A stretch of 64,000 nt of DNA, taken from IMG/VR virus record IMGVR_UViG_3300022902_000006; one strand, written 5' to 3'. A program made the position numbers and the translations under genes. The stretch comes from a virus. Shown here in pieces: positions 28,651 to 62,660 of the stretch. The stretch's first letter is position 1. Each line of letters starts with the position of its first letter. The notes under the pieces are model-generated. The model had not been told where the DNA came from, did no database searches, and saw only the letters and a program-made list of their open reading frames with translations.

Positions 28651-28970
28651 GATCTAAAAACTCCATGTCGTCCTGACCATGGAGGTAGCACCCACTTGAA
28701 TCCTTGCAGAGGTATGAGTCCAGTCGTCGAAAGGCGCCTTTCGTACCGTGAGGAATACTTCAATTTGCGTACAAAGCGAATGACTTCTTCACCTTTTACA
28801 GCGAGTAGTAAATTGAAGTAATCGGAGCGGTACGAAAGGATGCCGATCGTTACTGGAACTCATGTTGGCCTTTGTCGGGAACTGGTGACTGTAAAAAAGG
28901 CCGTCGACGATGTATGGTGAAAATCTCGACGTTACGCCGAGGGGTGATCGTCACATCACACTACTGGGTA
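28651..28970. ncRNA. putative structured ncRNA carrying one copy of the array hairpin
   Basis: No convincing ORF; 12-bp + 11-bp inverted repeat at 28738-28839; GGCCTTT/AAAGGCC stem; hairpin CTCGACGTTACGCCGAG at 28925-28941; promoter motif at 28976. Confidence 0.5.
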
Positions 28971-29042
28971 CTACATTTTCTTATACCAACCCCTTGACAC
29001 TAATTCGCACGTGCTTACCCTATAAACACAGAGGAGAAAACG

Positions 29043-34666: not shown

Positions 34667-35147
34667 CGCACCTCCAACACGTGCTTCATACTCCTCCTCT
34701 TTTTTTGATAAACACATCCCGTGTAGCCAGATTAGATCTGGGTCCGAGGTTCCTATCGGGCAACGAACCCCGGGAGGGGCATCATGGAGTTGTTTCTGGT
34801 GGGCGCTCCATGAACACAAGCCTGCGCATCTGACCCTAACGCGTACAACATGGCAGCAGCAGCAGCCGCCCACCTACCTACGTGTGTGAATCATTCCTTA
34901 ATTCGTGCCTCGGGGGCGCCAGTGGAATGGCGCCTACGTAGTGTCAGCGTTACGCTAACGACGCTTTCGCAACGAAAGATTCACGGCGAAGATTCTCGCC
35001 TTCTTCCACCTAATGTACAGCCTGGGTGTGGCCACGCCCTGCTACGAGGCATTACCCTCGTGGTGCACGGTGAGTCACTATACGGCAGTGAACTCCGCGC
35101 TCATCCCCCGCCCTGCCACACCCCTTGTTGCGCTGTACACCAAGACC

Positions 35148-35627
35148 TTAAATCAACAGCAGCTCTTCGTGGGGGAAGTACCCCACCTCCTCGGCGCCCA
35201 TGATCAGGGACAGCTCCTCACCGTCCGTGACGAACTCAAAGTTCATGTCGCTGTCACGACGCACCAAGGACCCCACTGCGCTGTAGAGCGCCTCGTTGCA
35301 CGCACGCCTCAGCTCTGCGACGGGCGGATTGTAGTCCGACGCCTCCATGCCGTAGAACGTCGAGTAGCGCATGTCGTTGGGGTCAAACGGGACCGTCTTC
35401 GCAGCAGCGACGCTCGCCGACATGTACCCAGTGTCGTTACGCACCAATCGACAGACCACCGTGGGGCCATCCAAGGCGAACACGGGGGTGTAGAACTCGT
35501 CGATGAAGTGGTACAACCGCGCCCAATTCTGCCACGCCTTGACCTGCGCCTGCACAGCGTCCAGGGTGGTGTCTGCCAGCTTGCGCCACACCGACACTGG
35601 AACCGAGATAACCTTCTGTTTTGTCAT
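35148..35627 (-). CDS. hypothetical protein
   Basis: SD GAGGAG; 159 aa. Confidence 0.65.
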   Translation of the reverse strand: MTKQKVISVPVSVWRKLADTTLDAVQAQVKAWQNWARLYHFIDEFYTPVFALDGPTVVCRLVRNDTGYMSASVAAAKTVPFDPNDMRYSTFYGMEASDYNPPVAELRRACNEALYSAVGSLVRRDSDMNFEFVTDGEELSLIMGAEEVGYFPHEELLLI

Positions 35628-35654
35628 GTCGCTCTCCTCGTTTGTCTCAGCATA

Positions 35655-35909
35655 TCATTTACCAGAAGGTGTTGTACCCAAAGATGGGTACAGGACGCCC
35701 ACTGTGGTGATGGGTGCTTTCAACAGCTCCTCGGACTCCATCATCCCGGGGACACTCGTGCAGTACACGGGGTCATGCTTTGCGCTACGCCCTGCGCAGT
35801 AGCTGCACATGTAATCACCCACCAAGGTACACCGTGTATTCCTGGGCAGGGTTCTGAATTGTCCTACATGGTTGAGTACCGGAATCCGTCCGTTGTCAGT
35901 CGTTGCCAT
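35655..35909 (-). CDS. small Cys-containing hypothetical protein
   Basis: CSYC motif; 84 aa. Confidence 0.5.
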   Translation of the reverse strand: MATTDNGRIPVLNHVGQFRTLPRNTRCTLVGDYMCSYCAGRSAKHDPVYCTSVPGMMESEELLKAPITTVGVLYPSLGTTPSGK

Positions 35910-36066
35910 CTTCGTTCCCTGGAATCACCACTATCACAGTGGCGTCCTTGTCGCTCGGTGGTGGATAGATCACGGCAACGCCGCGCCCACCCTCTTCAGG
36001 TGCAGCTTCGTCCGGTACCGGGGGGTACGGGTACTGATCTTCAATGTATACGTACGGCTGGTCCAT
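35896..36066 (-). CDS. small hypothetical protein
   Basis: Follows tRNA-Ala; overlaps the next gene start. Confidence 0.4.
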   Translation of the reverse strand: MDQPYVYIEDQYPYPPVPDEAAPEEGGRGVAVIYPPPSDKDATVIVVIPGNEDGND

Positions 36067-36079
36067 GTTGTTACCCATG

Positions 36080-36152
36080 TGGAGGATAAGGGACTCGAAC
36101 CCTCGACCCCGGGCTTGCAAAGCCCATGCTCTCCCAACTGAGCTAACCCCCC
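36080..36152 (-). tRNA. tRNA-Ala(UGC)
   Basis: Full cloverleaf, G3.U70, anticodon loop TT-TGC-AA; CCA not encoded. Confidence 0.95.
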
Positions 36153-36295: not shown

Positions 36296-36481
36296 AAAAA
36301 CGCAATGTATCACACTCCTTCCTGATTTTGGGCTCCTCACCGCCGGGCCTCCCTGCAGCTACCCTGTCGGCCTTCTCAGACGAGATCCGAAGGAACAAAA
36401 AATGAAAGACGTTGCGCCTCTCTGCTCACATGAGCTTAACGAAAGAATGTAACTACGAGCTACGTGATTTCTTATACCAGT

Positions 36482-54569: not shown

Positions 54570-54834
54570 CTGGCTCTCCCACGAGGTGGCTCAAAAGCTG
54601 ATGACACTTCTGCTCATATGTCTGGATCCGCTCTTCAAGAGAACGCACCAGCGCCACATCCTTCGTGATGCCCGCCTCCAGCTCCATGAACTGGCGCAAC
54701 CGTTGAAAACGATCAGTGGTTGACACATCAAGGCCCAACTCCTTCGCGCGTATGTGCACACGCGGGTCCCACCCACCATTGAGCTGCGACGCCTGTACGA
54801 CGACAACCTTCGGTCCTGTACTGGTATCCGCCAT
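54550..54834 (-). CDS. hypothetical protein
   Basis: 94 aa; coupled to the YkgJ gene. Confidence 0.55.
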   Translation of the reverse strand: MADTSTGPKVVVVQASQLNGGWDPRVHIRAKELGLDVSTTDRFQRLRQFMELEAGITKDVALVRSLEERIQTYEQKCHQLLSHLVGEPDGETQN

Positions 54835-55256
54835 CAGCCCACCTTCCATTCGTTGGGTTTTGTCGCCATGGTACCACCACGCGTCATGGGCAGACCCCCG
54901 GGCGCGTGATCACGATAGAACGTCGCAATAGCGTTCTTGCAGTGCTGACTGCCTGGCGTGAAGTCCCGGCACACCTTGGGGCGCCCCTCGTAGACATCGC
55001 AGCGACAATCCACGAGGACACGCCCCTTGAGCGCGATGCACGCGGGGCCGTCTGGGTGTGACTTGTTCACCCGAAGACCTTGGTAGAAGTGTCCATGCAG
55101 GTCAGGAGAGCACACGTAACGCTGGTACGCCTCGGGGAGTCGCTCCAAGTCCGCGTCAGTCACCTCAGCGTAGTAGTTGCTGGCGTGACCGCCGCTCGCC
55201 GGAATGTCGGAGAGGCAGCAGATGCCACACTCTTGGCAGTTGAATTCCTCTGGCAT
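54834..55256 (-). CDS. YkgJ-family Cys-cluster (Zn/Fe-S) protein
   Basis: CQECGICC ... CIAL...CRCDVYEGRPKVCRDF..C. Confidence 0.85.
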   Translation of the reverse strand: MPEEFNCQECGICCLSDIPASGGHASNYYAEVTDADLERLPEAYQRYVCSPDLHGHFYQGLRVNKSHPDGPACIALKGRVLVDCRCDVYEGRPKVCRDFTPGSQHCKNAIATFYRDHAPGGLPMTRGGTMATKPNEWKVG

Positions 55257-55258
55257 GA

Positions 55259-56209
55259 CTACGCCAGCTCGTCGAGGTAGCGCTGGACGAAACCCTGCTC
55301 GTGGCCCAAGGCAACCCACTTCCAGAAGCCACGACTCAGCTCAGCGGCGTCGACGCGCGCCAGGAACTCGGTGCACTCCTTGTCGTGCTGCGCCACCACG
55401 CGCTCACCCGCGTCCTGCAGCGTATCCACCAACTGCTTCACCACCCCGTTCTCCCGCCGCAGCCGGTACACCTCATCCTGCAGCGCGTTGACGTCCTCGG
55501 GGATGTTGTTCCCCTCAGCCCAGAGCGCGCGGGTTTCCTCATCCATGGGCTCCTCGGGGGACTCGCTGGTGACACCCGCGTACATGGACTCAGCCGAGTC
55601 ATTCGCCTGAATGGCCGCGTTGTGGTCCACGTGATCCACGGAGGACGCATGCATCTCCGCCTCCTGCTCGGGGGTGAGGAGCTTCTTGAGAGGGGCGTTC
55701 TTCACCGCCTCAGTGATCTCCGCGCCCTTGCCCGTGCCGACGTTGAGTGCCATCGCCTTGAGCTTGTTGCTCTCCCACTTCCTCTTGCACACCTGGAAGT
55801 ACGCCTTGCTGACCGGGCACTCACCCTTGAACGCCGCGACCCACCACCCGGAGAAATCCTCGAAGGTGAGGGTGGGATCCGTGTCCAGGTACCGGTGGAT
55901 CATCTTCGCCTGGGAGTCACCCTTCTGCGGCTGCACCTTGGTCTTGGGGGTAAACCCTGGCTCCTTCTGAGGGAGCACCGCCGCTTCCTCACCCAGCAAC
56001 TCGATACGCTGCTTCTTGTACATGCTCTTGGCCTGGATGTAATACTTCTTCTTCACCGGGCAGATAGCGCGCTTGCCCTTACCCTGGGCCTTGCGCCACT
56101 CGTTGGTGAACTGCACGTAGTTCATCTTGACCCACGTACCATCTGCCGCGTGCTCATTGAGCACATCCCACACCTGCTGCTGCAGGCTCGGTCCTTTCTT
56201 CTTTTTCAT
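55259..56209 (-). CDS. hypothetical protein with a duplicated N-terminal motif and coiled coil
   Basis: F..W......CPV.K.Y...K repeated twice; strong codon bias. Confidence 0.65.
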   Translation of the reverse strand: MKKKKGPSLQQQVWDVLNEHAADGTWVKMNYVQFTNEWRKAQGKGKRAICPVKKKYYIQAKSMYKKQRIELLGEEAAVLPQKEPGFTPKTKVQPQKGDSQAKMIHRYLDTDPTLTFEDFSGWWVAAFKGECPVSKAYFQVCKRKWESNKLKAMALNVGTGKGAEITEAVKNAPLKKLLTPEQEAEMHASSVDHVDHNAAIQANDSAESMYAGVTSESPEEPMDEETRALWAEGNNIPEDVNALQDEVYRLRRENGVVKQLVDTLQDAGERVVAQHDKECTEFLARVDAAELSRGFWKWVALGHEQGFVQRYLDELA

Positions 56210-56211
56210 TT

Positions 56212-56988
56212 CTACGTCTCCGGATGGTTGTACGGCTGATACGTCGCCGCGTAGTTCTTCGCCACAGGCAGCTCTTCGAACTGACGCCATTCGCGCCACA
56301 AATCCTCAAGGAACCGCTGCAACATGTAACGCTTCGCCGCTTTGTCCCGGTGGCTTCCATTCATACCCCAGGGGGCGGGTCCACCTGACCCACCGCAGTT
56401 GCGACACTCGTGTCCGTAGAATGTACCCTTGCCTTTGCAAGCCATGCAGATGGGGACCATGGTGGTCTCCTTCCGCTGCTTGTAGTTGTTGTAGTGTGTG
56501 ACGTACGGCTCTGTGCCGTGCTGCAGGAACTGATTCGCGATGCGGTCTGAACGGCACTTGCGGTACGAGGATACCTGGGTAGCAGGGAGTGCACGCCCGT
56601 TGCGGGGTGCTACGCCCCACCAGGCCCACAGGGATGAGGGGTGTGGGGCCTTGCTAATATCGATCTCCCCAATCAGCGCAGCGCCGAGCGCCGGGCCAAT
56701 CCCTTTGATGTCCCGCAACCAGTGCTGCCAGAACTCCTCTTCCTTGAGCGCCAGATGCATCCGTCGGTACAGGTCCTTCTCCGACACATTCGCAACGTGG
56801 ATCATCTCCCGCGCGAAGACCGGCGTACGCCCCTTACCCACCACCTTGAGCAGCTCGATACGACACTGCTGGGTGTGGTGGTAGACACGCGCCACCTGAG
56901 CCAGCTCCGAGTAAATGCTCTTCTTGACCACCACCTTGCGCACTCTGGTTGCCCTCTTCTTGGGCGCCACCTTCTTCTTGGGCCTCAT
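56212..56988 (-). CDS. IS110 C-terminal / Nop-like RNA-binding domain protein lacking RuvC (TasA-like)
   Basis: WLRDIKGIGPALGAALIGEI...SSLWAWWG (Transposase_20 HhH motif); H.DKAAKRYM..FL..LW..WR..E.LP; CxxCxGxG Zn insert; no DEDD domain. Confidence 0.7.
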   Translation of the reverse strand: MRPKKKVAPKKRATRVRKVVVKKSIYSELAQVARVYHHTQQCRIELLKVVGKGRTPVFAREMIHVANVSEKDLYRRMHLALKEEEFWQHWLRDIKGIGPALGAALIGEIDISKAPHPSSLWAWWGVAPRNGRALPATQVSSYRKCRSDRIANQFLQHGTEPYVTHYNNYKQRKETTMVPICMACKGKGTFYGHECRNCGGSGGPAPWGMNGSHRDKAAKRYMLQRFLEDLWREWRQFEELPVAKNYAATYQPYNHPET

Positions 56989-56993
56989 GGCAT

Positions 56994-57233
56994 TTAGGGC
57001 CTCCTCTGCCCTCGCTCTTCCGGCGTCAAACAACTCGCCGGGTGCTCCATCTCATCATACTGCTTGTCCGAGATTCTTCCGTCTTTGCACAAGCCGTCTG
57101 TGAAATCGTTGAACGCCTCGCACCGTGCTACGTAGTCAATCTTTCTATCCTGCTCGTAGGTGTCACGCACACCCGGAAGTACGCACTGCGTGAACTCGCG
57201 AACCACCTGGGTCCACGTCATGTAACGACTCAC
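56994..57233 (-). CDS. hypothetical protein
   Basis: SD AGGAGG, GTG start; R.AFNDFTD.LCKDG.I motif. Confidence 0.65.
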   Translation of the reverse strand: MSRYMTWTQVVREFTQCVLPGVRDTYEQDRKIDYVARCEAFNDFTDGLCKDGRISDKQYDEMEHPASCLTPEERGQRRP

Positions 57234-57638
57234 ATCCCTCCTACAAAGAAAACGTGCACCGCCCCCGTATCCTGCCGTCCCCGCAGGGACGACGAGTTGG
57301 ACATAAGGGGCAGTGCACCGATGGGATAACGACCTCCGCGCGATCCGTGATGCGTCGCCGGGGGTTGGGAGTGGCGCGCAGACTCTTCCGGAGATACGGG
57401 CTAATGTCAGCCCCGCACAAAGCCTACGGCCCCCACGTGTTAGGGCTCGCTGGGTCGACGCTCGCCGGTCTTGGAGCGTCGCCTTTGAGTGGCGAGTTAC
57501 TGCGGTACTACTTCTCCTCCTCGTTGTGATGTCGTGTAAAGGTGATTCCGGACTCCCCGGATACCACCCGCCGCTCCCACCACACCCGCCGAAGCAGGTG
57601 CAGTGAGGGCGGTCTTGTCTTGTTGGTCGTCGCACCCG

Positions 57639-58106
57639 CTACGCGGGGGCCTCCTCCGTCTCCAGCGGACCCTCGAACGGCGTCTCCACGACCTCCTCCT
57701 CCTCCTTGGGCGGCACGCTGGTGGGGTACATCCACAGGGACGGCGCCTCCAGGTCGCGGTCGCCGAAAACGACGCAGGGGATGTTCTCGTCCGGGTCCGC
57801 GTCGCCCGTGGGGATGACGACACCGTGACCCGAAGCAGCGGACACCGTGCCAGCGGCAGCGAGAGACACACCACGCTCGGCCTTGGTGGAGGCGAAGTCC
57901 AGCTTCACCGACGCCCATGCGCACGCCTTGCCCATCATGCGGAAAACGAACCCCAGGGCGGCGAGCACCATCGCCGGGACCCCGAAGACGAAGGCACCCA
58001 TCATGCACAGCACGACCGCCACGACGGCCACGATGACCAGCACCATGCTGAAGGAGTACGCCAGGCCACGCAGGGCCACAAACTTCGCACTGAGTTCTTT
58101 CTTCAT
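57639..58106 (-). CDS. membrane protein (two TM helices)
   Basis: SD GGAGG; long hydrophobic N-terminus. Confidence 0.65.
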   Translation of the reverse strand: MKKELSAKFVALRGLAYSFSMVLVIVAVVAVVLCMMGAFVFGVPAMVLAALGFVFRMMGKACAWASVKLDFASTKAERGVSLAAAGTVSAASGHGVVIPTGDADPDENIPCVVFGDRDLEAPSLWMYPTSVPPKEEEEVVETPFEGPLETEEAPA

Positions 58107-58316: not shown

Positions 58317-58718
58317 CTAATGCACCTGCACCCAGCGCCAGGGCTGAGGCGTGGTGTAGTCACGCGGGTCGAACGCCCCGAAGATGGGCTCATCCATGTT
58401 CACGCGACGACGCAACCCGTACCGCGTGGACGAGAAGGACTGCGTGTCCTCCAGGATGACGCTGTCAATGCCCAGCAGCACCTCGGCCATGAAGAAAAGG
58501 GACCGGGTATTGCGCACGTCGCTCTCGCGCCGCTCGTACAGCTTGTGCAACAGCGGAACCATGTCTGGGTTCACCAGCAGGACCTGGGTGAGCGCCTGCT
58601 CAACCACAGCACCCTTCGCCGCCAGGTAACGGTTGTCCGATGCCCCAACAACCTTGAACCACGCCTGCTCAGCGCCATACTGGATGATATCCAGAACCAA
58701 CTCTGCTACATCTTTCAT
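58317..58718 (-). CDS. orphan protein (133 aa) adjacent to the hairpin array
   Basis: SD GAGGAG, own promoter and terminator, strong codon bias. Confidence 0.75.
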   Translation of the reverse strand: MKDVAELVLDIIQYGAEQAWFKVVGASDNRYLAAKGAVVEQALTQVLLVNPDMVPLLHKLYERRESDVRNTRSLFFMAEVLLGIDSVILEDTQSFSSTRYGLRRRVNMDEPIFGAFDPRDYTTPQPWRWVQVH

Positions 58719-58810
58719 GATGTATTGCTCCTCTCTCCGGATGAGAGATCATTACGCCTCGTCACTCTATAAGGGCACGGTCGATAAGACGAGACGTGTT
58801 CAATGGTTGA

Positions 58811-58855
58811 ACACTCGACCGCATATTCTTGTACCTGTTTGAGTATCATATTTTT
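58811..58855 (-). promoter_or_regulatory. duplicated promoter-leader block, copy 2
   Basis: See 58208-58251. Confidence 0.65.
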
Positions 58856-58862
58856 AGGATCT

Positions 58863-58885
58863 AAAAAGCGGCGTGGGAGCGCCGC
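58863..58885 (-). terminator. Rho-independent terminator closing the array on the - strand
   Basis: GCGGCG/CGCCGC stem followed on - by T5. Confidence 0.65.
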
Positions 58886-61240
58886 AGTGATGCCTTATGT
58901 AATGGGGCCAGAGACCAACTTCGAGGTGCAAGCTCGAAGTTGGTCTCAGCAGGCAGTAATAGCATCTCCCTCACCCCGGAGATGCCGAGCACTGCCGAAG
59001 GTCTAATACCGACGTTGCGCCGGTCGCTCTAGGAGCACGCATCACTTGTTGGTACTTACTTACTACAAACAACCACGATACTTGAATCTCCCGCTCCTGC
59101 TGGTGTGGGACAGTTTTGTGGGGTAGTACGTAGGCCACCCCACAAAGTCTCGTGACCATCCCGCCAGGCTTGGTGGGGTGGGTAAGAACGCCCCACGGCG
59201 CAGTATGTGCCTAATACGTGGGCGTAGCACCCACACGCCGCCAGGACGTACTATCGTGGTGATTCCTTCAGTTGACGATCCAGGTGGGGTTCACGAGGTG
59301 GGGACTAACCTCGTGAGCTTCACCCAGTCGCCGTAGTGCCCGGTACACGACCTTCGGTCGTAGTCCGGGTCAGGCATTTGTTACTACTCCCTGCGAGCGT
59401 GTCGCTCGCCGTGCATGCTAGTACACACGAATCACCGGTCTCACTTCACTATCCCTCAGAGGGTTCTTTTAATAAGGCGTGCGCCGCGATGTTTGTGGAA
59501 GGGATGTCGCGTAGGCATGGGTGTAGTCACTTTGTCAAAGTGTCTGTACCCAGGGCGTCCACGTGACATCACTCCACGTGTATCAGCGAAGCTACCCCGT
59601 GGGCGGTGCGCCCACCACTTACGTCGTGCGTTGAGACCTAGTTTTGAACTAACGCGCTTACTTGTCTGTCACCGGAGATTGACCTATTCGGCTGAGGTGT
59701 TGGTGGAGTCCGGCACGAGCCGGACGCCCAACATATTCAGCGATGTCGCCCTTTTCGTTTATATGGGTGTAGCACCCACCACGTATCAACAACCACTAAG
59801 CGCGAGTTGCTAGAGCTAGAGAATGTGGCGAATCACTTCGTCGCGCCCTCTGCTTCGTGGGGTGTGACATCGGCGCGCGGCACCTTGCGCGACAATGTCG
59901 CATATCGTGAACCGGAGTTCAGTACCGTATGTGGGCGTTGCACCCACGCCACGTCCTGTGAACCAACTACACGCTTTCGTATGTACCTTATTCGCTTATT
60001 GGTGAGGAGGGAGCCCTCCTCGTCGTTAAAGGTGCAAATACACACCCGCCGAACAACCCTCGCATGTATTTGTACCGTAACGCGGGGGAGGTGCGTACGC
60101 CCGAACAACTCACCGAGGTTTCTACCACTCTACGGTGTCGTTTCAACACCTGTGAATTCGTTGACCGAATAAGGAAACGCTCACTAACAATTTTGACAGG
60201 GCGGAGTCGCGTAGGCTTCGGGAGACTCAGTGTTCCGAAGTCTAGGTGGCTCCGCACAAAGATGTTCTGGGTTCGGATACGGTGGAGGAGCCTCGCTTTA
60301 TCGGCGCCGCCTTAGCAAGCTGATTGAGGCGACGATATCCGAAGCTCCACCGCGTATCGTGTACCTGGCGACGTTTCGTCACCACCACGTCTGTGACGTG
60401 TACTGAGCGTTCAGGTTGTTGCTTTGGATTAGGACCCCAGTGGAGAGCGAATCGCAAGTTCGGATCACGTGATGACAGTGCTTTTGAGCACAGACTCAAA
60501 GGGATCCGTGCGCAGCGAGTCGCGATATCTTGATGAATGATCTAACTGCACGTCCAAGACGTAGTCGTCGGACTGCACCAGAGGGAAGTTAGATCAGACG
60601 GCAAGATCTCCTGAGCAATCACGTGGGCGTAGCACCCACACGCGCGCAGCGTACCAACAACCAGTTTACGGCGTAAATCGTACCTTATCCTCACTAGGGG
60701 CTGTCATCGACCAAGATGACCTATTGCTGAGTGTGGGACGCGCTAGGCGAAGCCTGAGCGGCGTACCGCATGTAGCGTGTGCTGCTTACTACTTGTGGTG
60801 GCGGTGCGCCACCTATGTAACCGACGTCGGTTAACGACTGAGGACAAAACACTCGCTTGAGTCTCTAAAAGGTGTTGTTCAAGCACGGCAATTGAAGGGG
60901 TCAAAACACGCTTTGCACCGCCGCAGCGGGGCAGTGTTTTGGGAACTACAACTGTCGGGGATGGATATAACACCTCTAACAGTAATGGTGGTGTTGCACC
61001 ACCGCCTGACCTGATCAGGTTTACCGAGTGTGTACTGTGAAGCGCTGACTTCATTTTACGATAGAAACAGATAGTGGGATGTCACACGACATCCGCTTTG
61101 GTGTGGCGGTCATCTCCGGGTGTCCCCGGGGACTGGCCTACCGCTACGGCGGAGACACTACTGTGTGGACTGCTCTTATCCCGCGCATCCTTCCGCTGAC
61201 GTTACGTCAGCTCCCTGGGAACCTGGCCAGGCTTTCTCAG
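58886..61240. ncRNA. structured non-coding array: 12 units of about 200 nt, each marked by a 17-nt hairpin
   Basis: No credible ORF over 2.35 kb; dense long helices; periodic hairpin (see next feature). Confidence 0.8.
59008..61211 (-). repeat. 12 periodic 17-nt hairpins (7-bp stem ending YG/CR, 3-nt loop)
   Basis: Starts at 59008, 59218, 59393, 59599, 59763, 59931, 60134, 60367, 60623, 60797, 60987, 61195; all fully paired (WC or G.U) on the - strand. Confidence 0.85.
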
Positions 61241-61246
61241 CGCTAC

Positions 61247-61975
61247 TTACTTCTTGTTGAACATCGCCACCATATCGGCGTACGAGGAGGGCTTGAACTG
61301 CTTGAGGATATCGAAGGAATTGTCTTGTAGGATGGAGAGTCCCATGAGTGTGACCGTGGGAAGTGTTCCAGGAGCCATCACGCCACCTTGCCCCGCCGCA
61401 CGCATAAATGCGACCGACGACTTGAGCACATGAGCCTCTGCCTCAGTGGTGTCTGGAGTAGCCACGGTGTGCCCTGAATCCTTGGCGCAGTCCTCGGCGG
61501 GGGAGATGACGCAGTGGAAGCGACACATCGCCGGGCGGTACTTGTAGATGGTGCAGTCGTGTGTCTTCTCATCCACGAACCCACACATATTGTTGCTATC
61601 GAACCAATCTACTGCAGATACCTTATCCTGGAACTTGGCCTGGAATTCCAGCACGGACAGGAGCGACATCAACTTCTCTTTTGGGTAAAGTTTGAGGAGG
61701 TAGCGAGCGATAACCAACCCTTCGGCGACCGTGGCAAGGACCTGCTGCTTACAACATGCAGTGCACCCACGCGTGCAGGAGACGGTTTCACCCTGTGCCT
61801 CCTCGAATGCTTGTATCTTGCGCAGAAAGCGCTGATGCACGAGGTCCAACATATCCTCGAACACGTCAAGAAGTAGGTTCAGCTCTCCACAAGGTGCGTA
61901 GTGCCCGCGCTTGGTCAGTCTTCTGCTCTTGTAGCCCTTCGGCTTCTTCCTCGGCTTCTTTGTCTTCTTGGGCAC
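61247..61975 (-). CDS. YkgJ-family Cys-cluster protein with Lys-rich N-terminus
   Basis: SCTRGCTACC ... CGFV...CTIYKYRPAMCRFHC; SD GGAGGAG, GTG start. Confidence 0.85.
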   Translation of the reverse strand: MPKKTKKPRKKPKGYKSRRLTKRGHYAPCGELNLLLDVFEDMLDLVHQRFLRKIQAFEEAQGETVSCTRGCTACCKQQVLATVAEGLVIARYLLKLYPKEKLMSLLSVLEFQAKFQDKVSAVDWFDSNNMCGFVDEKTHDCTIYKYRPAMCRFHCVISPAEDCAKDSGHTVATPDTTEAEAHVLKSSVAFMRAAGQGGVMAPGTLPTVTLMGLSILQDNSFDILKQFKPSSYADMVAMFNKK

Positions 61976-62660
61976 GCCACTCCTCCCTGAGTTTGTCGTA
62001 TTCCTTTCGCATGCTGTGAAACCGTCGACCTCCATCAGGTCTCTGGTTGTCTTTAGGGTCCGACAATATACGCCAACCCGCGTCGTCCTCCGTTCCACGC
62101 CCACAGAACCACGCCTGGCACGTAATGGGCCTCGTAGCGTAGATGGAGCAGCGGCAACCCTTGAGGAAGGGACAATCCCCGTCATCGAAGTGCTTGAGGT
62201 ACGTGTATGTGTTGGGGCGAAACACCCCAAAGCCCGACGCAAGGTTAGGCGTCTCCTTCTCCCCGGGCTCTGGTGCCATGGAAGCGTTGCGTATGAGCCC
62301 CCGGAAACGCCACAACCTGTCCCGAGGATACACGCACACCTCGAACACACGGCAGCAGCGAGCGTCGCACGTCGCACACACCTCGTGGGATGTCTTGTTG
62401 TCGTGGGAGAATGCACTGTGGGGCCAGCGGTCATCAGGGCCAATCTCGTGGTCGTCGAAGTCGGACTCCACGATTGTTTTTAGCCTCTCCACAAGCTCTG
62501 GCTCTTCAGCCTCCACCTCTTGGACGGCCTTAATGCACTCTTGCAGCTCCACCATCTCGTCTGGGGTGATGACGCCACGAGGGGTGATGGTGTCCTCTTC
62601 GCTAAGTGCTTGTTGCTCCCCCTTGAATGTTTTGAGAGACATGAAGACACCGTCAGCCAT
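61866..62660 (-). CDS. YkgJ-family Cys-cluster protein with acidic N-terminus
   Basis: CATCDARCC ... CPFLKGCRCSIYATRPITCQAWFC. Confidence 0.85.
   Translation of the reverse strand: MADGVFMSLKTFKGEQQALSEEDTITPRGVITPDEMVELQECIKAVQEVEAEEPELVERLKTIVESDFDDHEIGPDDRWPHSAFSHDNKTSHEVCATCDARCCRVFEVCVYPRDRLWRFRGLIRNASMAPEPGEKETPNLASGFGVFRPNTYTYLKHFDDGDCPFLKGCRCSIYATRPITCQAWFCGRGTEDDAGWRILSDPKDNQRPDGGRRFHSMRKEYDKLREEWRAQEDKEAEEEAEGLQEQKTDQARALRTLWRAEPTS

What the first reader, a model, noticed from the sequence alone, without database searches (positions are those of the whole stretch)
58886..61240. A 12-unit non-coding array with ~200-nt period, marked by a covarying 17-nt hairpin: candidate new phage RNA system
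Seen in sequence: 2.35 kb without a credible ORF carries 12 hairpins, written here as + strand: ACCGACGTTGCGCCGGT (59008), GTGGGCGTAGCACCCAC (59218), GCGAGCGTGTCGCTCGC (59393), GTGGGCGGTGCGCCCAC (59599), ATGGGTGTAGCACCCAC (59763), GTGGGCGTTGCACCCAC (59931), GGTGTCGTTTCAACACC (60134), GGCGACGTTTCGTCACC (60367), GTGGGCGTAGCACCCAC (60623), GGTGGCGGTGCGCCACC (60797), GGTGGTGTTGCACCACC (60987), GCTGACGTTACGTCAGC (61195). Spacings are 210, 175, 206, 164, 168, 203, 233, 256, 174, 190 and 208 nt. The outer 5 bp change sequence but stay paired; the inner YG-NNN-CR is conserved. Spacers are unique but full of long helices, e.g. a perfect 15 bp at 58911-58947 and 17 bp at 59283-59324. Established knowledge: this does not match CRISPR (repeat too short and variable, spacers about 180 nt), 36-nt TIGR arrays, or rRNA. 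Inference: a polycistronic array processed into, or templating, about 12 distinct ~200-nt structured RNAs, with the hairpin as the signal recognised by a phage protein.
Basis: partly seen in the sequence, partly recalled or inferred. Interest (0 to 1): 0.95.

Follow-up and report, generated by a model that had tools for sequence, protein, structure and literature searches.

The report
Hairpin-marked RNA array beside TasA
A 180-kb marine phage carries a real 2.4-kb gene-free stretch made of 12 different, strongly folding ~200-base units, each headed by the same small hairpin; it matches no known RNA family and lies 1.9 kb from a guide-RNA-binding TasA gene that lacks its usual guide array, so it may be a new kind of phage RNA array, but its function is not shown.

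Summary
All 12 hairpins are at the stated coordinates: 12 found against about 0.5 expected. It is the longest stretch without codon periodicity in the 180-kb genome. On the minus strand all 12 form a 7-bp stem with a 3-nt loop and a conserved YG-NNN-CR core. Seven G.U pairs there are A.C mismatches on the plus strand, so the hairpin works on the minus strand.

That is the strand of the flanking genes. The array follows an operon and ends at a minus-strand intrinsic terminator. The same hairpin occurs 30-140 nt after three minus-strand sigma70-like promoters elsewhere in the genome, and in distant relatives.

There is no Rfam match, no ORF per unit, no CRISPR, TIGR or retron architecture, and no homologous array elsewhere. 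Every other assembly of this phage is 100% identical, so there is no comparative test.

New here: the 258-aa gene 1.9 kb downstream on the same strand is a confirmed nuclease-less TasA. It keeps the Tyr/His tail that processes guide RNA in TasH. Its relatives carry canonical 36-nt TIGR arrays; this genome has none.

Best reading (0.4): a co-transcribed, processed array of structured RNAs, with TasA the leading candidate reader. Transcription evidence is weak.

The parts
58886..61240 (-). Array of 12 hairpin-headed non-coding units. In minus sense the unit lengths are 208, 190, 174, 256, 233, 203, 168, 164, 206, 175, 210 and 163 nt.
61195..61211 (-). Hairpin U12, GCUGACG-UAA-CGUCAGC, 35 nt after the stop of the upstream gene
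60987..61003 (-). Hairpin U11, GGUGGUG-CAA-CACCACC
60797..60813 (-). Hairpin U10, GGUGGCG-CAC-CGCCACC
60623..60639 (-). Hairpin U9, GUGGGUG-CUA-CGCCCAC (one U.G pair on the minus strand)
60367..60383 (-). Hairpin U8, GGUGACG-AAA-CGUCGCC (one U.G pair)
60134..60150 (-). Hairpin U7, GGUGUUG-AAA-CGACACC (one U.G pair)
59931..59947 (-). Hairpin U6, GUGGGUG-CAA-CGCCCAC (one U.G pair)
59763..59779 (-). Hairpin U5, GUGGGUG-CUA-CACCCAU (one G.U pair)
59599..59615 (-). Hairpin U4, GUGGGCG-CAC-CGCCCAC
59393..59409 (-). Hairpin U3, GCGAGCG-ACA-CGCUCGC
59218..59234 (-). Hairpin U2, GUGGGUG-CUA-CGCCCAC (identical to U9)
59008..59024 (-). Hairpin U1, ACCGGCG-CAA-CGUCGGU (one G.U pair)
58862..58885 (-). Intrinsic terminator closing the array on the minus strand: GCGGCG-CUCCCA-CGCCGC followed by UUUUU
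58824..58835 (-). Sigma70-like extended -10 motif (GGTACAAGAATA, of the genome-wide family TGGTAYAAGAAAA) that starts the next operon
61247..61849 (-). Last gene before the array: 200-aa CxxCxxCC (PF03692, YkgJ-type) protein. A second copy lies just upstream.
58317..58718 (-). 133-aa gene of unknown family, first gene after the array
57221..57639 (-). Structured 418-nt leader before the 75-aa gene and tasA. It has blocks conserved with the 62%-identical relative L055, including AGCGAGCC, and a terminator-like hairpin with compensatory changes.
56212..56988 (-). tasA: 258-aa nuclease-less Nop-domain Tas protein with a coiled coil, a CxxC..CxxC zinc insert and a conserved Tyr246/His255 tail
28925..28941 (-). 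Stand-alone hairpin CUCGGCG-UAA-CGUCGAG, about 30 nt after a minus-strand promoter motif (28976-28987), followed by a non-coding structured stretch
36405..36421 (-). Stand-alone hairpin AGAGGCG-CAA-CGUCUUU followed by CAUUUUUU. It lies about 45 nt after the promoter motif at 36467-36478 and ahead of tRNA-Gln and tRNA-Ala.
34943..34979 (.). Two adjacent hairpins of the same type in opposite senses, 3 nt apart: minus-sense GUUAGCG-UAA-CGCUGAC and plus-sense GCUUUCG-CAA-CGAAAGA

Best explanation
The array is the non-coding tail of a minus-strand operon. It is transcribed from the operon's promoter through 12 tandem units to the intrinsic terminator at 58862-58885. Each unit is one small RNA hairpin (7 bp, 3-nt loop, conserved YG-NNA-CR top, free outer stem) followed by a unique, strongly folded body of 150-240 nt. 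The hairpin is a phage-wide RNA signal read by shape plus a few bases. In the array it marks unit boundaries, where a phage protein binds and probably cuts, giving about 12 distinct ~200-nt RNAs. The leading candidate reader is TasA, 1.9 kb downstream on the same strand. TasA is a Nop-domain protein; this family binds a G-C pair flanked by box D (UG) and box C (C..) and, in TasH, cuts its own precursor RNA with a Tyr/His tail. Shown: the hairpins, their strand, the non-coding and folded nature of the region, the terminator, and the identity of TasA. Inferred: transcription of the whole array, cutting, and which protein reads the hairpin.
For: The hairpin excess and covariation are strong. Strand: seven stems carry one non-Watson-Crick pair, and all seven are G.U on the minus strand and A.C on the plus strand, which is 0.008 by a sign test. 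The flanking genes are on the minus strand, and the only canonical terminator lies at the minus-strand end of the array, not after the upstream gene's stop. The same hairpin lies at +31, about +45 and about +140 behind three minus-strand TGGTAYAAGAAAA promoter motifs, and right after a gene's end at genome 42239. In distant relatives, L057 and L058 have a conserved GCGAGCG-UAA-CGCUCGC right after a stop codon, followed by about 110 nt and a terminator. L053 has CGUGGCG-UAA-CGCCACG 250 nt before tasA. Stemless YG.UACR heptamers are enriched in the unit bodies on the minus strand only: 11 against 2.3 expected, P = 3e-5. TasA identity: NCBIfam TIGR_Tas_endo E = 1.8e-27 over the whole profile; PDB TasR 9MTY and TasH by sequence and by fold (pLDDT 91.9, TM 0.66); Tyr246 invariant and His255 at least 90% conserved in 36 homologues, aligning near the place of SpTasH Y289/H296 (PMC13421893). 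Relatives at 38-40% identity have canonical dual-repeat TIGR arrays next to tas, whose loop repeats GG-AUA-CCC, GG-ACA-CCC and AG-UCA-CCC are also a G-C pair closing a 3-nt loop that ends in A. This genome has no such array. Three of the seven phage contigs in an RNA library fall in the array, and each ends 10-25 nt on the upstream (minus-sense) side of a hairpin.
Against: There is no direct proof of transcription or cutting; the RNA-library contigs have depth 2-4 and could be DNA carry-over. No homologous array was found anywhere, and all other assemblies are 100% identical, so there is no cross-species covariation. The units have no dual 8-12-nt spacers, no regular box spacing, no enclosing stem and no shared body motif. 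A terminator, a promoter and three genes separate the array from tasA. The hairpin also occurs in relatives that have their own canonical TIGR array, so it need not be a TasA signal. The tasA leader may hold its own guide. Body helices show more G.T than A.C when read on the plus strand (16 against 7), which is opposite to the hairpins.
Confidence: 0.4

Rival explanations
1. The hairpin is general transcript punctuation and the array gives no discrete RNAs. In this reading it is a phage-wide RNA element that controls termination, antitermination or nuclease attack, like nut/boxB sites or 3'-end stabilisers. The array would be a long structured 3' tail, or a sponge that titrates the hairpin-binding factor.
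For: The hairpin occurs in leaders just after promoters and just after genes. Three copies are followed by U-rich tracts that make them terminator-like: window 36405, window 28925 and genome 42239. It also occurs in relatives away from any array. Twelve copies in a row would make an efficient decoy.
Against: The array hairpins have no U tract. It does not explain why each hairpin is followed by a unique body that folds 3-5 SD better than shuffles. It does not explain the regular 165-255-nt spacing.
Confidence: 0.2
2. The hairpins are DNA hairpin promoters on the template strand, as in phage N4. They extrude on the minus DNA strand and a phage RNA polymerase starts a few bases past each one, making 12 short plus-sense RNAs.
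For: The design is the same as N4 virion RNA polymerase promoters: a conserved GC-rich heptamer centred on a 3-nt loop, a variable outer stem that only has to pair, 5-7 bp, selected on one strand (PMC4496689). It would explain why body helices look better on the plus strand (16 G.T against 7 A.C) while the hairpins are minus-strand. Two opposite-sense hairpins 3 nt apart at 34943-34979 fit a start 3 nt past the stem. The phage has its own fused beta/beta' RNA polymerase.
Against: No N4-type or T7-type polymerase was found among the large proteins tested. Three hairpins sit behind minus-strand sigma70-like promoters in the sense of that RNA. There is a minus-strand terminator at the array's end and no plus-strand terminators before the hairpins. 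Plus-sense RNA from hairpin 12 would run antisense into a gene. The polarity of the body helices is only weakly significant and the plus strand is richer in G+T.
Confidence: 0.12
3. It is decayed or selfish DNA: a gene-free block colonised by a small palindromic element of REP or MITE type, or the remains of duplicated units, with no present function.
For: Stems fall into two sequence families, GUGGG and GGUGN, as duplication would give. A few weak shared patches such as GGTTGTT occur in 4 units. No relative carries the array.
Against: The G.U polarity, the invariant G7/C11/A10 on diverged stems, and the strong folding of every unit argue for selection. The block is identical in at least 11 assemblies. 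Phage genomes rarely keep 2.4 kb of junk.
Confidence: 0.08
4. It is a replication or packaging element working on single-stranded DNA, with the hairpins as priming or initiator sites on the minus strand.
For: The structure is conserved but the sequence is not, and G.T is tolerated on one strand, which also fits ssDNA hairpins. One copy of the genome-wide palindrome TTTAC-N3-GTAAA lies in the array at 60665-60677.
Against: There is no AT-rich unwinding region and no iterons, and GC content is as in the rest of the genome with no global skew switch here. The hairpins elsewhere sit in transcribed leaders. A better origin candidate is the AT-richer 1.2-kb divergent region just beyond the window's end.
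Confidence: 0.07
5. The units are retron-like templates for the phage's own reverse transcriptase, which other readers report encoded about 100 kb away. Each unit would be an msr-like hairpin plus a long msd-like stem copied into DNA.
For: Unit size and the order 'short hairpin then long imperfect hairpin' resemble retron ncRNAs.
Against: Array units have no a1/a2 closing repeat. Pairing between a unit's own 5' flank and 3' end is no better than between non-cognate units. There is no conserved branching-G context. The RT gene is far away and was not examined here.
Confidence: 0.05

Closest known systems
TIGR-Tas systems, dual-repeat type (Faure et al. 2025, PMC12045711)
   Same: A Tas (Nop-domain) gene lies on the same strand within 2 kb. 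The array is long, unidirectional and ends in a rho-independent terminator. Its repeated element is a tiny G-C-closed loop flanked by YG and C, like box D, loop and box C of a loop repeat. Units are unique in sequence between the repeats.
   Different: Units are 164-256 nt, not 36 nt. There is one repeat type, not two alternating ones. There are no 8-12-nt spacer pairs. The 5 nt on either side of the core pair with each other. The array is separated from tas by a terminator, a promoter and three genes.
TIGR-Tas systems, stem-loop type (PMC12045711; Xu et al., bioRxiv 10.64898/2026.09.09.750476)
   Same: Stems are variable but always palindromic, with conservation limited to the bases next to the loop. 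Unit positions relative to tas are flexible. TasA partners lack a nuclease.
   Different: In known stem-loop units the stem encloses box C, spacer A, box D, a loop, box C, spacer B and box D (about 54 nt or more). Here the stem encloses only 3 nt, and the box order is D-loop-C rather than C...D. The paper's rings split linker length at 9 nt and it examines linkers under 20 nt, whereas here they are about 150-240 nt. This TasA keeps the Tyr/His tail typical of dual-repeat binders.
IS110 bridge RNAs (IS621, ISCro4)
   Same: Unit size (about 180-200 nt) and multi-helix folds with internal loops are similar. The partner protein shares the Nop/Tnp domain; the TasA model's next-best folds are IS621 and ISCro4.
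   Different: The protein has no DEDD/RuvC domain and no catalytic Ser domain. There are no IS ends. There are twelve tandem units rather than one per element. No conserved bridge-RNA scaffold was found.
Phage N4 virion-RNA-polymerase hairpin promoters (PMC4496689)
   Same: The design rule is the same: a 5-7 bp stem, a 3-nt loop, a conserved GC-rich heptamer at the top, a free outer stem, and selection on one strand.
   Different: No N4-type polymerase was found. There are 12 copies at 200-nt spacing instead of 3 before early genes. The loop bases differ (N4 has A-G-G). The hairpins here lie in the sense of nearby host-type promoters and terminators.
CRISPR arrays and phage solitary repeat units or RNA anti-CRISPRs
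   Same: Both are a tandem array of a structural repeat with unique intervening sequence, carried by a phage.
   Different: The repeat is 17 nt and varies in sequence. The 'spacers' are 150-240 nt and folded. No cas gene is adjacent; the genome's Cas12-linked 47-nt-period array lies about 10 kb away and has a different repeat.

Membership tests
TIGR array, dual-repeat | Two alternating 8-12-nt repeats (edge and loop) separated by 9-12-nt spacers, with a period of about 36 nt | tested here: not met
   Tandem Repeats Finder, a k-mer cluster scan and a regex built on the relatives' repeats find none in the window or genome. The same regex finds 12 and 8 hits in L057. Array spacing is 164-256 nt.
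TIGR array, dual-repeat | A Tas (Nop-domain) gene next to the array | tested here: met
   TasA at 56212-56988 lies on the same strand, 1.9 kb from the array's end.
TIGR array, stem-loop | [quoted passage not shown] | tested here: not met
   The conserved stems enclose 3 nt. No consistent outer stem surrounds the hairpins. Stems with 26-80-nt loops show no shared loop-edge motif. The spacing of YG..ACR modules is not TIGR-like: my tally of positions gives 3 of 29 neighbouring pairs 8-12 nt apart against about 1.5 expected.
TIGR array (any) | Processing into unit RNAs bound by Tas | not testable with these tools
   The only data are three short RNA-library contigs with ends 10-25 nt from hairpins.
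Tas protein family | Nop domain with a coiled coil, homologous to TasR and TasH | tested here: met
   NF052498 gives E = 1.8e-27 at 96.7 bits (curated cut-off 100) over positions 11-215 of 215. Phmmer finds 9MTY at 2.4e-7. The AF2 model has pLDDT 91.9 with helices 13-50 and 57-82. Foldseek gives 9MTY E = 6e-9, TM 0.66, rmsd 2.3.
Tas protein family | Nuclease domain (RuvC in TasR, HNH in TasH) | tested here: not met
   Only about 12 residues precede the coiled coil in the model and there is no DEDD or HNH hit. It is therefore TasA-type.
CRISPR array | Repeats of 25-40 nt with conserved sequence, spacers of similar size, cas genes nearby | tested here: not met
   The repeat is 17 nt with a variable stem, intervals are 147-239 nt, and no cas gene is in the neighbourhood.
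Retron ncRNA | a1/a2 inverted repeats closing each msr-msd unit, and an adjacent RT | tested here: not met
   Cognate flank pairing is no better than non-cognate. No RT lies in the neighbourhood.
IS110 element with bridge RNA | DEDD RuvC-like domain plus Tnp domain with catalytic Ser; one ncRNA per element | tested here: not met
   Only a weak partial Transposase_20 or IS110 match (E about 1e-5, far below the cut-off) and no DEDD domain.
N4-type hairpin promoter | Template-strand hairpin of 5-7 bp with a 3-nt loop and a conserved heptamer | tested here: met
   The geometry and conservation pattern match the published description (PMC4496689).
N4-type hairpin promoter | A cognate single-subunit virion RNA polymerase and transcripts starting about 11 nt from the loop centre | tested here: inconclusive
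   No such polymerase is among the large proteins scanned, but not all proteins were scanned. Starts cannot be mapped with contigs.
Any Rfam family | Covariance-model match | tested here: not met
   Only tRNAs reach gathering score in the window. In 58600-61400 nothing falls below E = 1.

The most novel reading that the evidence does not exclude
The array is a long-unit descendant of a TIGR array. In this reading, TasA of this phage lineage has lost the 36-nt dual-repeat array of its relatives. It instead reads the box D-triloop-box C-like top of the 17-nt hairpin, cuts the precursor with its Tyr/His tail, and carries about twelve ~200-nt RNAs of bridge-RNA size as guides or scaffolds. That would be a third architecture of Nop-domain RNA-guided systems, lying between tigRNAs and IS110 bridge RNAs.
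Probability: 0.15. Interest if true: 0.9.

Novelty: new variant of a known kind. Interest (0 to 1): 0.72.

Why it matters
Arrays of a structural repeat with unique units are the hallmark of RNA-guided systems such as CRISPR and TIGR. This one has units five times longer than any described TIGR unit and lies beside an array-less TasA that keeps its RNA-processing residues. If the two work together, it would show how Nop-domain guide systems change their RNA architecture, and it would bridge tigRNAs and IS110 bridge RNAs. It would also add about 12 natural ~200-nt RNA scaffolds to a protein family already used for genome targeting. If they do not work together, the phage still devotes 2.4 kb to an RNA array of unknown kind, and its hairpin signal is reused across its early transcripts. 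That signal is directly testable with one co-expression and pull-down experiment.

Tried and rejected
- **RNA families:** Rfam at gathering score and at E up to 5 gave only tRNAs and noise.
- **DNA similarity:** the array against 50,697 phage records gave no match. A hairpin 17-mer pattern in IMG/VR gave 30 single chance hits and no arrays. The 178-kb and 420-kb contigs among them are unrelated.
- **Flanking proteins:** the flanking proteins and the DNA polymerase as single queries in IMG/VR and in the phage records found no close relative. The best polymerase identity was 25%. The flanking 398-aa ORF has no homologue but itself.
- **Strain variation:** 11 other assemblies are 100% identical over 3.7 kb, so they carry no information.
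- **Low-share DNA runs:** X16, X18 and X19 gave only sparse pieces.
- **Shared sequence in units:** MAFFT of the units, k-mer sharing against shuffles and fixed-offset information content found nothing beyond the hairpin and weak patches.
- **Unit-level structure:** an enclosing stem around each hairpin and a retron-like a1/a2 closure were not found.
- **Antisense matches:** unit bodies against the rest of the genome gave only the dispersed TTTAC-N3-GTAAA palindrome, no better than a reversed control.
- **ORFs:** no unit has its own SD-led ORF.
- **Canonical or stem-loop TIGR units in the array:** none was found. One loose regex hit at 61142 (GGUAGGCC-N9-GGACACCC-N9-...) is within chance.
- **More relatives:** the conserved leader 18-mer is absent from IMG/VR. 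TasA relatives are absent from 185,579 prokaryote genomes.
- **Related phage G003:** this 87-kb record (49% complete) has no hairpin array. Its 885-nt non-coding block has other repeats.
- **Hairpins upstream of tasA in L057 and L058:** these lie in coding sequence and come from CxxC codons, so they were discarded.
- **Gene-call look-up:** a look-up for window 35013-36089 failed, and codon-position GC shows that ORF is not a gene.
Full report
**What the window is.** The window is bases 87,056-151,055 of a 180,179-bp IMG/VR phage record rated complete. The source is seawater. GC content is 58%. The phage has a fused beta/beta' RNA polymerase, a family-A DNA polymerase only 25% identical to any cultured phage's, and six tRNAs in the window. 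At least 11 other public assemblies hold the array region at 100% identity over 3.7 kb. It is therefore one clonal population and gives no variation to study.

**The observation.**
- Read on the minus strand with G.U allowed, every one is a 7-bp stem with a 3-nt loop.
- The count is 12 in 2.36 kb, against 0.48 expected from Markov simulations (maximum 4 in 300) and 63 in the other 178 kb.
- G7 and C11 never change. Position 6 is Y and pairs with R12. The last loop base is A in 10 of 12.
- The outer five pairs differ between copies and always pair.
- Part of this is family resemblance: five stems are GUGGG/CCCAC and four are GGUGN/NCACC.
- Seven stems have one non-Watson-Crick pair. All seven are G.U on the minus strand and A.C on the plus strand. 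By a sign test this is 0.008, or 0.016 if the two identical copies count once. Pairing is therefore maintained on the minus strand.

**The region is non-coding and folded.**
- No unit has an ORF with a ribosome-binding site.
- Gene callers of the public assemblies leave 2.4 kb empty.
- It is by far the longest stretch of the genome without codon periodicity.
- Stop-containing words are enriched and ATG-containing words are depleted.
- Every unit folds better than its dinucleotide shuffles, with a mean z of about -2.8 on either strand.
- Apart from the hairpin, the units share no motif at any fixed offset, only weak patches.
- Rfam has nothing.

**Context and direction.**
- The flanking genes are all on the minus strand.
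- In minus sense the order is a five-gene operon ending in two CxxCxxCC (YkgJ-type) genes, then hairpin 12 35 nt after the stop, then the 12 units.
- Next comes a textbook intrinsic terminator at 58885-58862.
- After it comes a promoter-like motif of a family (TGGTAYAAGAAAA) found before many minus-strand units of this genome.
- The terminator sits after the array and not after the last gene, so the array is most simply the tail of that transcript.

**The hairpin outside the array.**
- It lies about 30 nt behind such a promoter at window 28925, ahead of a non-coding stretch.
- It lies about 45 nt behind another at 36405, where a U tract follows it, ahead of two tRNAs.
- At genome 42239 it lies directly after a gene's end.
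- At genome 42026 it lies inside a promoter-driven ncRNA of about 300 nt.
- It is thus a general minus-sense (RNA-sense) signal of this phage, and the array is where it is concentrated.

**Expression.** One metatranscriptome holds seven short, exact, low-depth contigs of this phage within the 14 kb laid. Three fall in the array, and each ends 10-25 nt on the upstream (minus-sense) side of a hairpin, at 59434, 59625 and 59967. This fits unit RNAs with 5' ends just before each hairpin. However, it is only three contigs, they are unstranded, and DNA carry-over is not excluded.

**The neighbour.**
- The 258-aa gene at 56212-56988, 1.9 kb past the array on the same strand, is a Tas protein.
- It matches NCBIfam TIGR_Tas_endo at E = 1.8e-27 over the whole profile, just under the curated cut-off.
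- By sequence it matches TasR (9MTY) and TasH.
- A confident model (pLDDT 91.9) has a long coiled coil. Its best solved folds are TasR and TasH, then the IS621 and ISCro4 recombinases.
- It has no nuclease domain, so it is TasA-type. It carries a four-Cys insert.
- Across 36 homologues Tyr246 is invariant and His255 is at least 90% conserved in the C-terminal tail. These align near the place where SpTasH has the Tyr/His pair that cuts pre-tigRNA (PMC13421893).
- The family is large: 1,408 representatives at E below 0.001.
- Relatives at 38-40% identity (L057, L058, L067) have canonical dual-repeat TIGR arrays touching the gene. In L057, for example, GGCGUGCC and GGAUACCC alternate with 10-nt spacers.
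- L053 has about 1.5 such units (GGACACCC twice, with GGCGUUUUCC between them) just before its tasA.
- This genome has no such array anywhere. The contig of the 62%-identical Tara relative is too short to tell.

**Resemblance between the hairpin and TIGR repeats.**
- The loop repeats of those relatives (GG-AUA-CCC, GG-ACA-CCC, AG-UCA-CCC) are a G-C pair closing a 3-nt loop that ends in A.
- The invariant part of the array hairpin has the same form: YG, then NNA, then C.
- In solved Tas complexes the G of box D (UG) pairs with the C of box C (PMC12045711).
- Stemless YG.UACR heptamers are also over-represented in the unit bodies, on the minus strand only: 11 against 2.3 expected, P = 3e-5.

**Why it is not a TIGR array.**
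- There are no paired 8-12-nt spacers and no second repeat type.
- There is no regular spacing of the heptamers.
- No stem encloses a guide loop.
- Units are five times longer than any described TIGR unit. The published survey splits linker length at 9 nt and looks at linkers under 20 nt (bioRxiv 10.64898/2026.09.09.750476).
- The five bases on each side of the core, where spacers would lie, pair with each other.
- The hairpin also occurs in L057 and L058, which have their own canonical arrays.
- The tasA leader contains conserved blocks, including AGCGAGCC, which is the edge repeat of L067. These could be TasA's own guide.
- The link to TasA is therefore a lead with about 0.2 absolute probability, not a finding.

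**Unexplained.** Local helices in the unit bodies carry 16 G.T against 7 A.C mismatches when read on the plus strand. This is opposite to the hairpins. The plus strand is slightly richer in G+T, and the bias alone is weak (about 0.03), but the contrast with the hairpins is clear. One explanation is the N4 model, in which the hairpin is a promoter on the template DNA strand and the product is plus-sense. N4 promoters have exactly this design (PMC4496689). Against it stand the host-type promoters and terminators in the hairpin's own sense and the lack of a matching polymerase. I keep it as a rival at 0.12.

**Verdict.** The feature is real, strongly non-random and strand-specific. It is non-coding, highly structured, and without a known family or a homologue. 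The best reading is a co-transcribed, probably processed array of 12 structured RNAs marked by a protein-recognition hairpin. The adjacent array-less TasA is the most interesting candidate partner. Function, processing and even transcription remain to be shown.

Noticed in passing
window 56212-56988 (-) and leader 57221-57639 (-): A TasA gene has no canonical TIGR array in the whole genome. Its 418-nt leader shares blocks with the 62%-identical Tara relative (AGCGAGCC, CUCCCAACCCC, GGUCGUUAUCCCAUCGGU). It ends in a long hairpin with compensatory changes followed by a U tract. This may be a solitary guide or an attenuator.
   Followed up: partly
L057:9480-9950, L058:4990-5340, L067:1-210 and 1230-1350: Canonical dual-repeat TIGR arrays lie beside TasA relatives: GGCGUGCC/GGAUACCC in L057 and L058, and AGCGAGCC/AGNCACCC in L067, with 10-nt spacers. 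In L067 the arrays lie on both sides of the gene.
   Followed up: partly
genome 158,444-159,767 (L010:18444-19767), beyond the window: About 25-unit array with a 47-nt period. A variable but always paired 5-6-bp stem flanks a conserved loop AUACAAAGCC and is followed by UGGCGUA. Other readers call it a CRISPR array beside a cas12-like gene. Like the array studied here, its stems covary while its loops stay fixed.
   Followed up: no
window 2471, 17912, 28987, 36478, 44472, 54312, 58232, 58835 (all minus strand) and more in the genome: A recurrent motif (T)GGTAYAAGAAAA, which looks like an extended -10 promoter, lies before minus-strand transcription units.
   Followed up: partly
window 60665-60677 and many sites genome-wide: The dispersed palindrome TTTAC-GGC-GTAAA has one copy inside array unit 9. 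It was the only array sequence with repeated matches elsewhere in the genome.
   Followed up: no
genome 63,818-68,527 (L008:3818-8527): A single 1,569-aa ORF joins RNA polymerase beta (Rpb2 domains 3 and 6) and beta' (Rpb1 domains 1 and 2) modules, a fused multisubunit-type phage RNA polymerase.
   Followed up: no
genome 41,857-42,291 (L007:1857-2291): A stand-alone promoter-driven ncRNA of about 300 nt on the minus strand contains an array-type hairpin (GGGGGUG-CUA-CACCCCC) and a long hairpin closed by UGAUCUCA/UGAGAUCA. A second array-type hairpin with a U-rich tail ends the gene just upstream. The region folds at z = -4.2.
   Followed up: partly
window 54834-55319, 61247-61849, 61866-62660: There are several paralogous CxxCxxCC (PF03692, YkgJ-type) genes around the array and tasA. 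A CxxCxxCC gene also follows tasA in the Tara relative L055, so this family may be linked to TasA.
   Followed up: no
G003 (L061:12716-13600): The 87-kb relative has an 885-nt non-coding block with long inverted repeats and three copies of (G)GUGUUGCGCCCCGG-like words. It is unlike the array studied here.
   Followed up: no
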